64,000 bases of DNA from Escherichia coli (GTDB lineage Bacteria; Pseudomonadota; Gammaproteobacteria; Enterobacterales; Enterobacteriaceae): the NCBI RefSeq assembly GCF_048403405.1, contig NZ_CP183131.1. The stretch is one strand, 5' to 3'. Shown here piece after piece: positions 1 to 13,962 of the stretch (position 1 is its first letter; each line of letters begins with the position of its first letter). The position numbers and the translations under genes are program-made. The notes under the pieces were generated by a model. That model saw only the letters and a list, made by a program, of their open reading frames with translations, was not told where the DNA came from and ran no database searches.

Positions 1-85
1 ATGCGCCTGGTAAGCAGAGTTTTTGAAATGTAAGGCCTTTGAATAAGACAAAAGGCTGCCTCATCGCTAACTTTGCAACAGTGCC
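1..85 (+). mobile_element. IS26: IS26, 3'-terminal 85 bp (partial, continues beyond window start)
   Basis: Bases 1-33 encode the Tnp26 C-terminus (MRLVSRVFEM, stop); terminal IR tttgcaacagtgcc ends at 85; same 52-bp stop-to-end spacing as the complete copies. Confidence 0.93.
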
Positions 86-685
86 AGTGATACCAACCTG
101 GTGATCGTCACCGATAAGCGCACCTATAACATCGTCCTCCATTTCATCGGTGAAGAAACGAAGAAAAATGCAGACGGTACGGTATCAAAATCCTTTATTG
201 AAACGCCGTGGGCTGTGCGCCAGGCCGTTCTTCAGCTGACCTATGAATATCCGTTTGAGCAGCAGGAAAAAGCCAAAAGCGCGGCTGATAAAAAACGCAT
301 TACGCAGAAGCTGAAGCAGACGGCTTTTGCGGGGGCGAAGAACTATCAGTACGTAATGAGCGAACAGCCTGAAATGCGCAGCATCCAGCCGGTTCACGTC
401 TGGGATAACTACCGCTTTACCCGGTTTGAGTTTCCGGCCAATGCGGAGTTACCGCAGGTCTACATGATTTCGGCCAGTGGCAAAGAAACGCTGCCTAACT
501 CTCATGTTGTGGGTGAGAACCGCAACATCATCGAGGTGGAAACCGTCGCTAAAGAGTGGCGTATTCGTCTGGGCGATAAAGTCGTTGGCGTTCGTAATAA
601 TAATTTCGCGCCGGGCGCCGGTGCGGTAGCAACCGGCACGGCTTCCCCGGATGTGCGCAGGGTTCAAATTGGGGAGGATAACTGA
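86..685 (+). pseudogene. traO: traO (VirB9-like T4SS protein), 3' portion; gene interrupted by IS26, 5' portion at 13670-13962
   Basis: Reading frame is open from the IS26 junction; 8 bp agtgatac at 86-93 is the reverse complement of 13670-13677; translation continues the N-terminal fragment (…KQAMSD | [10 protein letters not shown]…). Confidence 0.8.
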
Positions 686-1845
686 TGGCCCGTAAAAGTG
701 TCGATGTAGATCAGGAACTCGATGAAAACACCGGAGACGGTGAATTCGAAAGCGAGCGTGGCGGATTTAAAGGCAGTAACCGCCGTTCGGCTCCTGGTAT
801 GAAAGCCTTTGTCATACTGATGGCGCTGCTTGCTTTGGTATTCATCGGGATTACGGTCATGGGTAAAATTCGCACCCCGGCTAAAGCTGAAGCTGATAAA
901 GACGGTGGTAAAGCGCAACAGGCCAATACACTGCCAAACTACAGCTTTAACAGCGATCCTGATGTTAATAAACCTGCAACTGCGCAGAATAGCGCCACTG
1001 ATGCCCGTGCTGTGCAGGCTGCCGCACAGGCAGATGCAGATGCGGGCAGCAGCAATACCGCCGCGCGTACCTCTAATAAGCGTAAAGAACCTTCGCCTGA
1101 AGAACTGGCTATGCAGCGTCGTCTGGGCGGCGAGCTGGCCCAGACTAATCAGGCGGCTACAAGCAATAGTCCCGGAGTGCAGCCCCAGGACAACGAAACA
1201 AGCGAAGGTAGTTCAGCACTCGCTAAAAACCTGACTCCTGCAAGGCTGAAGGCTAGCCGCGCTGGAGTCATGGCTAATCCCAGCCTGACTGTTCCGAAAG
1301 GCAAAATGATCCCCTGTGGTACCGGCACCGAGCTGGATACCACTGTTCCGGGTCAGGTTTCCTGCCGGGTTTCACAGGACGTTTACTCAGCTGATGGACT
1401 CGTTAGGCTGATTGATAAAGGCTCATGGGTTGACGGGCAGATTACCGGTGGTATCAAAGACGGCCAGGCGCGCGTGTTTGTTCTCTGGGAGCGTATCCGC
1501 AATGACCAGGACGGGACAATCGTTAATATTGACAGTGCCGGAACGAACTCACTCGGCAGCGCGGGGATTCCGGGCCAGGTGGATACCCATATGTGGGAGC
1601 GTCTGCGTGGTGCGATCATGATTTCGTTGTTCTCTGACACCTTAACGGCGCTGGTTAACCAGACGCAGAGTAATAACATTCAGTACAACAGCACAGAAAA
1701 CAGCGGTGAGCAGCTGGCGTCTGAAGCACTTCGCTCTTACATGTCTATCCCCCCTACCCTCTACGATCAGCAGGGTGATGCGGTGAGCATTTTTGTTGCC
1801 CGCGACCTCGATTTCAGCGGCGTTTATACGCTCGCAGACAACTAA
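685..1845 (+). CDS. traF: T4SS VirB10-like protein (IncN/pKM101-type TraF)
   Basis: 386 aa; charged N-terminus, one TM segment, Ala/Gln-rich linker and C-terminal barrel-like domain; lies between VirB9-like and VirB11-like genes. Confidence 0.8.
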
Positions 1846-1886
1846 AAAAGTGGGCGCTTAGCGCCCGCTTTTCTTCAGGAGTAATC

Positions 1887-2882
1887 ATGACTGATGCAGC
1901 TTTCTATCAACTTGGCCCACTGCGCGAGTATTTAGAAGATCCTACTGTTTTTGAAATTCGCATTAACTGCTTTCAGGAAGTTATCTGTGATACGTTCAGC
2001 GGCCGCAGGGTTGTGCAGAACGCGGCAATTACGGCAGATTTTATTAGGAACCTTGCTAAATCGTTGGTGAGCAGCAACAAGCTGACCATGCAGGCCATTA
2101 ATGACGTGATCCTGCCTGGCGGGATCAGGGGCGTTATCTGTCTGCCCCCTGCGGTGATTGACGGTACAACGGCCGTAGCGTTTCGTAAGGATTTGGCGGC
2201 CGATAAAAATCTGGAGCAGCTGACCAGCGAGGGGATTTTCAGTGACTGCCGGAAGATTACCGGCAGCAAGCAAAGCCTAACGGATGATGATTTTTTCCTT
2301 AAAGAGCTGCACAGCAGCGAAAAATGGCCCGCATTCCTGCAAACCGCCGTTGAGAAGAAACGCACTATCGTGATCTGCGGTGAAACCGGGTCGGGGAAAA
2401 CGGTACTCACGCGCGCGCTGTTAAAATCGCTACATAAAGACGAGCGTGTAATTATTTTAGAGGACGTTCACGAAGTCACGGTCGATCACGTTGTAGAAGC
2501 CGTTTATATGATGTACGGCGATGCAGGAAAGATCGGCCGCGTCAGCGCCACTGATGCCCTGCGAGCCTGTATGCGTCTGACACCGGGCCGTATCATCATG
2601 ACTGAGCTTAGGGATGATGCTGCGTGGGATTATCTTAAAGCACTTAATACCGGCCATCCAGGCGGTGTTATGTCAACGCACGCTAACTCTGCGCGCGATG
2701 CCTTTAACCGTATTGGGCTGCTTATCAAAGCGACCCCTATCGGCCGTATGCTCGATATGAGCGATATTATGCGAATGCTCTACTCCACCATTGACGTTGT
2801 GGTGCATATGGAAAAGCGGAAAATCAAAGAAATTTATTTTGACCCTGAATATAAAATGCAGTGTGTGAACGGGAGCCTGTAA
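1887..2882 (+). CDS. traG: T4SS VirB11-like ATPase (IncN/pKM101-type TraG)
   Basis: 331 aa; Walker A GETGSGKT and conserved VirB11 C-terminal region; sits at the end of the VirB8-11 order. Confidence 0.85.
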   Translation: MTDAAFYQLGPLREYLEDPTVFEIRINCFQEVICDTFSGRRVVQNAAITADFIRNLAKSLVSSNKLTMQAINDVILPGGIRGVICLPPAVIDGTTAVAFRKDLAADKNLEQLTSEGIFSDCRKITGSKQSLTDDDFFLKELHSSEKWPAFLQTAVEKKRTIVICGETGSGKTVLTRALLKSLHKDERVIILEDVHEVTVDHVVEAVYMMYGDAGKIGRVSATDALRACMRLTPGRIIMTELRDDAAWDYLKALNTGHPGGVMSTHANSARDAFNRIGLLIKATPIGRMLDMSDIMRMLYSTIDVVVHMEKRKIKEIYFDPEYKMQCVNGSL

Positions 2883-12627: not shown

Positions 12628-12804
12628 GGCAGCGCAAGTCAATCCTGGCGGATTCACTACCCCTGCGCGAAGGCCATCGGTGCCGCATCGAACGGCCGGT
12701 TGCGGAAAGTCCTCCCTGCGTCCGCTGATGGCCGGCAGCAGCCCGTCGTTGCCTGATGGATCCAACCCCTCCGCTGCTATAGTGCAGTCGGCTTCTGACG
12801 TTCA

Positions 12805-12829
12805 GTGCAGCCGTCTTCTGAAAACGACA
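12805..12829. repeat. IRi, 25-bp integrase-end inverted repeat of the class 1 integron
   Basis: gtgcagccgtcttctgaaaacgaca is the reverse complement of the canonical IRi; 20 bp later the sequence is cut by IS26. Confidence 0.75.
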
Positions 12830-12849
12830 ATGGAGGTGGTAGCCGAGGG

Positions 12850-13669
12850 GGCACTGTTGCAAAGTTAGCGATGAGGCAGCCTTTTGTCTTATTCAAAGGC
12901 CTTACATTTCAAAAACTCTGCTTACCAGGCGCATTTCGCCCAGGGGATCACCATAATAAAATGCTGAGGCCTGGCCTTTGCGTAGTGCACGCATCACCTC
13001 AATACCTTTGATGGTGGCGTAAGCCGTCTTCATGGATTTAAATCCCAGCGTGGCGCCGATTATCCGTTTCAGTTTGCCATGATCGCATTCAATCACGTTG
13101 TTCCGGTACTTAATCTGTCGGTGTTCAACGTCAGACGGGCACCGGCCTTCGCGTTTGAGCAGAGCAAGCGCGCGACCATAGGCGGGCGCTTTATCCGTGT
13201 TGATGAATCGCGGGATCTGCCACTTCTTCACGTTGTTGAGGATTTTACCCAGAAACCGGTATGCAGCTTTGCTGTTACGACGGGAGGAGAGATAAAAATC
13301 GACAGTGCGGCCCCGGCTGTCGACGGCCCGGTACAGATACGCCCAGCGGCCATTGACCTTCACGTAGGTTTCATCCATGTGCCACGGGCAAAGATCGGAA
13401 GGGTTACGCCAGTACCAGCGCAGCCGTTTTTCCATTTCAGGCGCATAACGCTGAACCCAGCGGTAAATCGTGGAGTGATCGACATTCACTCCGCGTTCAG
13501 CCAGCATCTCCTGCAGCTCACGGTAACTGATGCCGTATTTGCAGTACCAGCGTACGGCCCACAGAATGATGTCACGCTGAAAATGCCGGCCTTTGAATGG
13601 GTTCATGTGCAGCTCCATCAGCAAAAGGGGATGATAAGTTTATCACCACCGACTATTTGCAACAGTGCC
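12850..13669 (-). mobile_element. IS26: IS26, complete 820 bp (tnp26 12902-13606, minus strand)
   Basis: Terminal IRs at 12850-12863 and 13656-13669; identical Tnp26 ORF; inverted relative to the copy at the window start. Confidence 0.97.
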
Positions 13670-13962
13670 GTATCACTCATGGCCTGTTTCGGCTTCACAA
13701 AAAAATGGTTCATTTTGTGCGCAAACGTCCAGCTTTCAGAATCGCCAAAAGCATGAGTGATATAGGTTTCGTCAGGCGCGACAACAATGTGGGTAGCCAC
13801 ACCGGCGATAGCGTCAATTTTGACCACATTAACAGGGTTATAAACAACGCTTTTAATGCGATAGTCATAAGGATAATTGCGGCCAACCTCAAGCGCCATA
13901 ACGTTAGTGGCCGCGCCTCCCAGGACTGACAAAACGACTGCTGAAAGAAGTAGTTTTTTCAT
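13670..13962 (-). pseudogene. traO: traO (VirB9-like), 5' portion including signal peptide; interrupted by IS26
   Basis: MKKLLLSAVVLSVLGGAATNVMA signal peptide then VirB9 N-domain; ORF reads into the IS26 IR; 8-bp gtatcact at the junction. Confidence 0.8.

What the first reader, a model, noticed from the sequence alone, without database searches (positions are those of the whole stretch)
1..13677. traO split by IS26 with an inverted 8-bp target duplication: signature of an IS26-mediated inversion
The VirB9-like gene continues across two IS26 copies: the N-terminal part at 13670-13962 (minus strand) and the C-terminal part at 86-685 (plus strand). The 8 bp next to each IS26 (agtgatac at 86-93; gtatcact at 13670-13677) are reverse complements, and the two IS26 copies are in opposite orientation. 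This is the expected outcome of intramolecular replicative transposition of IS26 into traO, which inverts the intervening 12.8 kb that now holds the integron, ISCR1-qnrA1 and a third IS26. The T4SS gene is inactivated.
Basis: seen in the sequence. Interest (0 to 1): 0.5.

Follow-up and report, generated by a model that had tools for sequence, protein, structure and literature searches.

The report
IS26 split of a relic traO
An IS26 insertion sequence has cut a leftover IncN conjugation gene (traO/virB9) on an IncC resistance plasmid and left its two halves inverted 12.8 kb apart, which is a textbook IS26 rearrangement with no functional consequence because the IncN transfer system was already a fragment.

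Summary
The 85 bases at the window start are the IRR end of an IS26 (copy A, + orientation). Copy B (12850-13669) is inverted. The 8 bp beside them (AGTGATAC at 86-93, GTATCACT at 13670-13677) are reverse complements. Joining 13962→13670 to 94→685 gives an intact 294-aa VirB9/TraO.

1. The backbone is IncC, not IncN. The IncN DNA is a 4.9-kb relic (ΔtraE-traO-traF-traG-nuc), so splitting traO disables nothing that still worked.
2. The closest sequenced relative, NZ_CP023724.1, is identical block by block with intact traO. A single IS26 inversion from it does not reproduce the window, because the integron module comes out in the wrong orientation.
3. Two events reproduce the window with one mismatch. 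Either the integron flips between its inverted IS26 pair and an intramolecular "trans" transposition follows, or a "cis" transposition excises IS26+traO-C…nuc as a circle that rejoins at the other IS26. Both routes give the same product.
4. A one-step inversion works only from an unsequenced ancestor with the integron flipped. That orientation exists in NZ_CP134042.1.

The IS26 signature itself is well documented (He et al. 2015). This exact junction was found in none of the collections searched. Interest is low.

The parts
1..85 (+). IS26 copy A: last 85 bases, the IRR end. The rest lies left of the window.
   Evidence: Identical to 5059-5143 and 56895-56979, and the reverse complement of 12850-12934. 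The IR is at 72-85.
86..93 (+). 8-bp target duplication AGTGATAC, abutting the IRR of copy A
86..685 (+). traO (virB9) C-terminal part, codons 96-294 plus the stop
   Evidence: 100% identical to NZ_CP023724.1 traO.
685..1845 (+). traF (virB10), intact
   Evidence: NF038091 VirB10. Annotated virB10 in relatives.
1887..2882 (+). traG (virB11 ATPase), intact
   Evidence: TIGR02788 VirB11. Annotation.
2882..3415 (+). nuc (phospholipase D family nuclease) of the IncN relic
   Evidence: Annotation of relatives mapped by the 100% match. NucT-like hits.
4324..5143 (+). IS26 copy C, complete. IRL flank CGCTGGAC (nuc side), IRR flank GTCAAACG (qnrA1 side).
   Evidence: Same insertion point as in the IncN plasmid NZ_CP026590.1 and the IncC relatives.
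5144..12849 (-). Complex class 1 integron module M (7706 bp): qnrA1 5563-6219, ISCR1 6483-8024, sul1 ~8432-9268, qacEΔ1 9262-9609, aadA2 ~9776-10564, orfF 10570-10860 and dfrA12 ~10975-11469, all on the minus strand. intI1 11614-12627 is on the plus strand. IRi ends at 12829 and is followed by 20 bp of foreign flank.
   Evidence: 100% identical, inverted, to NZ_CP023724.1 75561-83266 (L002 9562-17267). NCBIfam hits for QnrA, ISCR, IntI1.
12850..13669 (-). IS26 copy B, complete. IRR flank (12842-12849) is the integron side. IRL abuts traO-N.
13670..13677 (-). 8-bp target duplication (GTATCACT on the + strand, AGTGATAC in the traO reading direction)
13670..13962 (-). traO N-terminal part (codons 1-97 and two bases of codon 98). 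It carries one private substitution at 13874 (S30Y).
13973..14305 (-). 3' remnant of traE (virB8). This is the end of the IncN relic; the IncC backbone starts at 14306.
   Evidence: The match to IncN NZ_CP026590.1 stops at window 14305. The region is contiguous and identical in the IncC relatives.

Best explanation
The region is part of an IS26-rich resistance island on an IncC plasmid. The island had earlier captured a 4.9-kb piece of an IncN transfer region (ΔtraE-traO-traF-traG-nuc), bounded on the nuc side by an IS26.

Shown:
- The IS26 transposase attacked the octamer AGTGATAC inside the relic traO in a replicative reaction within the same plasmid. This duplicated both the octamer and the IS.
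- traO-N+octamer is now joined to an IS26 IRL end. Octamer+traO-C is joined to an IS26 IRR end. The two halves are inverted relative to each other and 12,764 bp apart.

Inferred, most likely path:
- The donor was the IS26 whose IRR abuts the intI1 end of the integron and whose IRL abuts the ΔblaTEM/aac(3)-IId side.
- It attacked traO in the 'trans' mode.
- This inverted everything between donor and target: the integron with ISCR1-qnrA1, the nuc-side IS26, and nuc-traG-traF-traO-C.

Relative to the closest sequenced plasmid, this path also needs a flip of the integron module between its two inverted IS26 copies by homologous recombination, either before or after the transposition.

The event has no effect on conjugation. 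The IncN system was already incomplete, and relatives transfer by their own IncC F-type system.
For: - End polarity, the inverted octamers and the in-frame reconstruction of traO.
- The octamer pair is unique among 11 flanks, with 0.0008 matches expected by chance.
- Intact traO with a single AGTGATAC at that site in 100%-identical relatives.
- Explicit simulation from NZ_CP023724.1: module flip plus trans inversion reproduces window 1-18180 with 1 mismatch.
- The required donor junction (…GAGTAAAC | IRL-IS26-IRR | CCCTCGGC…intI1) exists in the sister IncC plasmid NZ_CP134042.1, so both module orientations occur in this lineage.
- The same signature, including a split conjugal transfer operon, is attributed to IS26 intramolecular trans transposition in clinical plasmids: PMC4471558. 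The mechanistic model is in PMC7986276.
Against: - No sequenced plasmid has the predicted immediate ancestor. The junction nuc|IS26|qnrA1 side is absent from PLSDB.
- All five PLSDB records with the qnrA1 module have it in the orientation that does not give the window in one step.
- The end product is identical, base for base, to that of the circle excision and re-joining route and to that of insertion plus homologous recombination. The topology of the event is therefore not determined by the sequence.
- The left flank of copy A, which the model predicts, lies outside the window.
- IS26 copies A, B and C carry no distinguishing SNPs.
Confidence: 0.5

Rival explanations
1. Circle (translocatable unit) route. 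The nuc-side IS26 attacked traO in the 'cis' mode. This deleted traO-C…nuc together with one IS26 copy as a circle and left traO-N|IS26|integron behind. The circle then re-joined the same plasmid at the IS26 next to qnrA1, either by the Tnp26 conservative IS26-to-IS26 reaction or by RecA.
For: - Simulated from NZ_CP023724.1, it gives exactly the window, the same product as the best explanation.
- It keeps the integron in the orientation relative to the backbone that is seen in all five sequenced relatives carrying the qnrA1 module.
- End polarity fits. The retained copy has IRL|T-traO-N and IRR|intI1 side. The circle has nuc|IRL and IRR|T-traO-C.
- Cis deletion circles and preferential insertion next to another IS26 are described in PMC7986276 and the Harmer/Hall papers cited there.
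Against: - It requires a non-replicating circle to be recaptured by the very plasmid that lost it, at one particular IS26 among at least six.
- Neither the deletion product nor any other plasmid with a traO-N|IS26 junction is in PLSDB.
- It is no more parsimonious than the inversion route. Both need two events.
Confidence: 0.22
2. Simple IS26 insertion into traO with a direct 8-bp duplication, arising from cointegrate resolution or circle insertion. RecA-dependent recombination between IS26 copies (two inversions, or excision and re-insertion) then scrambled the order.
For: - The flanks are fully compatible. Any pairing of the three IRL flanks with the three IRR flanks can be reached by IS26×IS26 recombination.
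- Hosts of such plasmids are recA+.
- Earlier authors explained similar structures this way, as discussed in PMC4471558.
Against: - It needs three events rather than two or one.
- No plasmid with IS26 inserted at this traO site in direct configuration is found in PLSDB, E. coli RefSeq complete genomes or GTDB species representatives.
Confidence: 0.15
3. Assembly artefact. The real plasmid has a simple IS26 insertion in traO, or another isomer, and the assembler joined the flanks of three identical 820-bp IS26 copies in the wrong combination.
For: - Copies A, B and C are 100% identical. Reads shorter than about 0.9 kb therefore cannot phase their flanks.
- The window arrangement is a pure permutation of the IS26 flank pairings of a relative plus one insertion.
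Against: - The window is 64 kb and crosses six IS26 copies, which suggests long-read or hybrid assembly.
- Such rearrangements are common and real in this plasmid family.
Confidence: 0.08

Closest known systems
IS26 intramolecular replicative transposition 'in trans' (inversion with inverted 8-bp target duplications), as catalogued in clinical plasmids by He et al. 2015, mBio (PMC4471558)
   Same: - Two oppositely oriented IS26 copies.
- Identical 8-bp sequences inverted relative to each other, one inside and one outside the bracketed segment.
- A gene split into two inverted halves. Their pKPC-727 example is also a split conjugal transfer operon.
   Different: - The segment contains a further IS26 and an integron whose orientation requires one extra IS26×IS26 recombination relative to the nearest sequenced relative.
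- The target is a non-functional relic.
- The donor's outer flank is not visible in the window.
IS26 translocatable unit formation and targeted re-insertion next to another IS26 (Harmer, Moran & Hall 2014; Harmer & Hall 2015, PMC4676283; reviewed in PMC7986276)
   Same: The block A–traO-C…nuc–C is a segment flanked by directly oriented IS26 copies lying next to a pre-existing IS26 position. This is exactly what insertion of an IS26+4.2 kb circle would give.
   Different: - The cargo is not a resistance gene.
- The circle would have had to arise by cis transposition into traO and return to the same plasmid.
- This route cannot be distinguished from the inversion route by sequence.
IncC plasmids of Klebsiella pneumoniae from Taiwan carrying the IncN relic and the IS26–In(dfrA12-aadA2)–ISCR1–qnrA1–IS26–aac(3)-IId island (NZ_CP023724.1, NZ_AP018672.1, NZ_CP129693.1; sister form NZ_CP134042.1)
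   Same: - 100% identity over 86-5143 and 4322-13671.
- 1 mismatch over 13670-18180.
- Identical IS26 flanks, and 24 kb of identical backbone.
   Different: - Those plasmids have intact traO and only two IS26 copies in this island.
- The window has a third copy and traO split.
- The window also has a different IS26 array (aac(6')-Ib, blaOXA-1, catB, fosA3) at 56-64 kb.

Membership tests
IS26 (IS6 family) | 820-bp element with 14-bp terminal inverted repeats GGCACTGTTGCAAA and a single IS6-family transposase gene | tested here: met
   - Copies B and C are 820 bp, with the IR at both ends.
- The 234-aa ORF matches NF033587 IS6 transposase, 275.6 bits.
- They are identical to elements annotated IS26 in PLSDB records.
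- Only the terminal 85 bases of copy A are visible.
IS26 (IS6 family) | 8-bp target site duplication on transposition | tested here: met
   AGTGATAC is present once in intact traO and twice in the window, once at each IS26 junction.
Intramolecular replicative transposition in trans (inversion) | Two IS copies in inverted orientation bracketing the segment. The target octamer is duplicated in inverted orientation, one copy on the inner side of one IS and one on the outer side of the other. | tested here: met
   A(+)|AGTGATAC is on the inner side and B(-)|GTATCACT on the outer side, with 12764 bp between them.
Intramolecular replicative transposition in trans (inversion) | Undoing the inversion and removing one IS and one octamer restores a known or plausible ancestor in a single step | tested here: inconclusive
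   - Undoing it restores intact traO, but leaves the integron module inverted relative to the closest relative. The forward simulation from that relative fails with 5729 mismatches.
- The required donor junction exists in NZ_CP134042.1.
- The full ancestor is not in PLSDB.
Intramolecular replicative transposition in trans (inversion) | The old flanks of the donor IS (outer flank of A, inner flank of B) were contiguous around one IS before the event | not testable with these tools
   - The left flank of copy A lies outside the window.
- The source record was not found in PLSDB, E. coli RefSeq, GTDB representatives or the gene-product index.
- The predicted flank is …TAAAGTATATATGAGTAAAC.
VirB9/TraO (P-type T4SS outer-membrane core component) | Full-length match to the VirB9 family when the halves are joined | tested here: met
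   - The 294-aa joined protein aligns at residues 13-269 to TIGR02781 positions 11-248 of 248, E=1e-61. The score of 208.7 bits is just under the curated cut-off of 217.7.
- One residue (S30Y) differs from WP_000735066.1, annotated as a TrbG/VirB9 family protein.
IncN plasmid / functional IncN T4SS | A complete tra (virB1-B11) set and IncN replicon in the same molecule | tested here: not met
   - Only 28082-32947 of the IncN reference NZ_CP026590.1 is represented in the window.
- The flanking 42 kb is IncC backbone.

The most novel reading that the evidence does not exclude
The arrangement was made by an IS26 circle carrying 4.2 kb of non-resistance cargo (traO-C–traF–traG–nuc). The circle was cut out by cis transposition into traO and recaptured at a different IS26 of the same plasmid. 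That would be a natural, sequence-documented example of intra-plasmid 'cut by replication, paste by targeted conservative reaction' that shuffles backbone relics rather than resistance genes.
Probability: 0.2. Interest if true: 0.2.

Novelty: new member of a known kind. Interest (0 to 1): 0.12.

Why it matters
The finding matters little beyond plasmid book-keeping. It is one more documented trace of how IS26 reshuffles multiresistance islands. It shows that an inverted 8-bp duplication proves a single Tnp26 target-site event but does not by itself prove a one-step inversion when three identical IS26 copies are present. It also gives a diagnostic junction pair for tracking this particular IncC lineage, which carries qnrA1, aac(6')-Ib, blaOXA-1 and fosA3. 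It has no bearing on transfer ability, because the IncN genes were already a fragment.

Tried and rejected
1. Looked for the source plasmid, or any plasmid sharing either traO|IS26 junction. None was found.
- PLSDB junction searches.
- E. coli RefSeq complete genomes.
- Exact-pattern scan of GTDB representative genomes.
- Exact-product look-ups of the two truncated TraO ORFs, with V or M as first residue.
- As a result the left flank of copy A could not be read.

2. Looked for the predicted one-step ancestor junction nuc|IS26|qnrA1 side in PLSDB. It is absent; best coverage was 86%.

3. Tested a single inversion from NZ_CP023724.1 with the aac(3)-IId-side IS26 as donor. Rejected by simulation.

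4. Considered a trans attack by the nuc-side IS26. Rejected on end polarity: it would join traO-N to IRR, whereas the window joins it to IRL.

5. Looked for SNPs among IS26 copies A, B and C that could trace parentage. There are none.

6. Looked for other matched 8-mers among the flanks of copies C, D, E and F. There are none.

7. Searched the literature for a description of this plasmid or of the IncN relic in IncC. Nothing specific was found.
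Full report
**1. The observation**

The window contains six IS26 copies:

| Copy | Position | Orientation | Note |
|---|---|---|---|
| A | ?-85 | + | only the last 85 bases are in the window |
| C | 4324-5143 | + | complete |
| B | 12850-13669 | − | complete |
| D | 56160-56979 | + | two substitutions |
| E | 59588-60407 | − | one substitution |
| F | 62905-63724 | − | complete |

- Copies B, C and F are identical to each other, and A is identical over its 85 visible bases.
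- The 85 bases at the window start are the IRR end, which fixes the orientation of A. A and B are inverted, 12,764 bp apart.
- Expressed in IS orientation, the IRR flank of A and the IRL flank of B are both AGTGATAC. This is the only matching pair among 11 visible flanks, against 0.0008 expected by chance.
- Joining minus strand 13962→13670 to plus strand 94→685 gives an 885-nt ORF for a 294-aa protein. Leaving both octamers in destroys the frame.
- A 524-nt piece of the joined gene spanning the junction is 99.8% identical to intact traO; 845 PLSDB plasmids cover at least 80% of it.
- The joined protein covers the VirB9 profile end to end.

**2. What the surroundings are**

The region is not an IncN plasmid.
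- Against the IncN plasmid NZ_CP026590.1, only window 86-5144 and 13670-14305 match. These correspond to reference 28082-33768, overlapping by the 8-bp target.
- The IncN DNA is therefore ΔtraE-traO-traF-traG-nuc plus about 0.9 kb, ending at an IS26 that sits at the same point in genuine IncN plasmids.
- From 14306 to 56159 the window is IncC backbone. Window 14000-38000 is 100% identical to many K. pneumoniae plasmids typed IncC with MOBH/MPF_F.
- The IncN genes virB1-B7 are missing from the relic. It could not have been a working secretion system, so its 'inactivation' has no consequence.

**3. The closest relative and the reconstruction**

NZ_CP023724.1 (K. pneumoniae TVGHCRE225, Taiwan, IncC) carries, in order:

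backbone – ΔtraE – traO (intact) – traF – traG – nuc – IS26(→) – intI1/dfrA12/orfF/aadA2/qacEΔ1/sul1/ISCR1/qnrA1 – IS26(←) – ΔblaTEM/aac(3)-IId …

The window matches it in three blocks:

| Window | Match to the relative | Mismatches |
|---|---|---|
| 86-5143 | direct | 0 |
| 4322-13671 | inverted | 0 |
| 13670-18180 | inverted | 1 |

I simulated the candidate histories on that sequence.
- A single trans inversion by the aac(3)-IId-side IS26 into AGTGATAC fails. It gives 5729 mismatches from position 5144 on, because the 7706-bp integron module comes out in the wrong orientation.
- A trans attack by the nuc-side IS26 is excluded by end polarity. It would put IRR next to traO-N, whereas the window has IRL there.
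- Two two-step histories both give the window exactly, apart from the private SNP at 13874:
  - (A) The module flips by recombination between its inverted IS26 pair, before or after a trans inversion.
  - (B) The nuc-side IS26 transposes in cis into traO. This releases a circle of IS26+octamer+traO-C…nuc and leaves traO-N|IS26|integron. The circle then re-joins at the other IS26.
- The two products are the same string, so the sequence cannot decide between them.

**4.

Yes, if the immediate ancestor had the module flipped.
- The donor needed is an IS26 with IRL next to …GAGTAAAC (aac(3)-IId side) and IRR next to CCCTCGGC… (intI1 side).
- Exactly that junction exists in the sister IncC plasmid NZ_CP134042.1, whose integron faces the other way but ends in mphA–IS6100–chrA rather than ISCR1–qnrA1.
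- No PLSDB record joins nuc|IS26 to the qnrA1 end.
- All five records with the qnrA1 module keep aac(3)-IId|IS26|qnrA1.

I therefore rate 'trans inversion, with a module flip somewhere in the history' as most likely (about 0.5). The circle route comes second (about 0.2). Simple insertion followed by homologous recombination between IS26 copies is third (about 0.15; three events, and no intermediate found). Repeat mis-resolution during assembly is last (about 0.08).

**5. Comparison with what is known**

- He et al. [quoted passage not shown] They apply it to several clinical plasmids, including one with a split conjugal transfer operon.
- They also argue that one-step transposition is more likely than insertion plus recombination.
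- Varani et al. 2021 (PMC7986276) give the cis/trans model and discuss circles carrying a single IS26.
- The present case is an ordinary instance of that kind.
- Its only particularity is that, with three identical IS26 copies in 14 kb, the inverted octamers prove one target-site event but not the topology of the rearrangement.

**6. Verdict**

- The reading was over-simplified and placed in the wrong plasmid context: an IncC plasmid with an IncN relic, not an IncN plasmid.
- The functional claim is empty.
- The phenomenon is known. The specific junction is unreported in the collections searched.
- Interest is low.

Noticed in passing
window 14305/14306: The IncN relic (ΔtraE) joins the IncC backbone directly, with no IS or repeat at the boundary. 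In relatives an annotated 'hypothetical protein' (WP_001256127.1) spans the junction, so it is a fusion ORF. How the IncN piece entered the IncC plasmid on this side is not explained.
   Followed up: partly
window 4304-4323 and IS26 copy C (4324-5143): The IS26 downstream of nuc sits at exactly the same base (flank …ATATCCGCTGGAC) in the bona fide IncN plasmid NZ_CP026590.1 and in all IncC relatives examined. This suggests the relic was captured from an IncN plasmid together with this IS26.
   Followed up: partly
window 56160-63724: A second IS26 array is present: IS26 D (truncating a Tn3-family tnpA at 54643-56232), AAC(6')-Ib-family gene, blaOXA-1-family gene, catB-type gene, IS26 E, fosA3/4-family gene plus three small ORFs, then IS26 F. 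None of D, E or F has a matching 8-bp flank in the window. The relative NZ_CP023724.1 shares the position of D, but the two sequences stop matching just past its IRR end.
   Followed up: partly
window 13874: This is the single base difference from the relative across the 18,180 compared bases. It changes TraO codon 30 from TCT (Ser) to TAT (Tyr) in the N-terminal fragment. It could be drift in a dead gene or a sequencing error.
   Followed up: partly
window 12830-12849: 20 bp (ATGGAGGTGGTAGCCGAGGG) lie between the integron IRi and IS26 copy B. They are a remnant of whatever the integron was originally inserted in (possibly a Tn21-family transposon, from memory only). The same remnant and IS26 junction occur in the relatives.
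   Followed up: no
L006 (NZ_CP129834.1) and L007 (NZ_CP129872.1): In two Taiwanese K. pneumoniae plasmids typed as multi-replicon (IncC+IncR, IncC+IncHI1B+IncR), the intI1-side IS26 of the same integron module has neither nuc nor any other part of the IncN relic beyond it. That DNA instead includes parM and other plasmid maintenance genes (L007) or an F-type traD (L006). This IS26 may therefore be a recurrent recombination point in the lineage.
   Followed up: no
window 56160-56979 and 59588-60407: IS26 copies D (2 substitutions) and E (1 substitution) differ from the otherwise identical copies A, B, C and F. The two arrays may therefore have partly separate histories.
   Followed up: no
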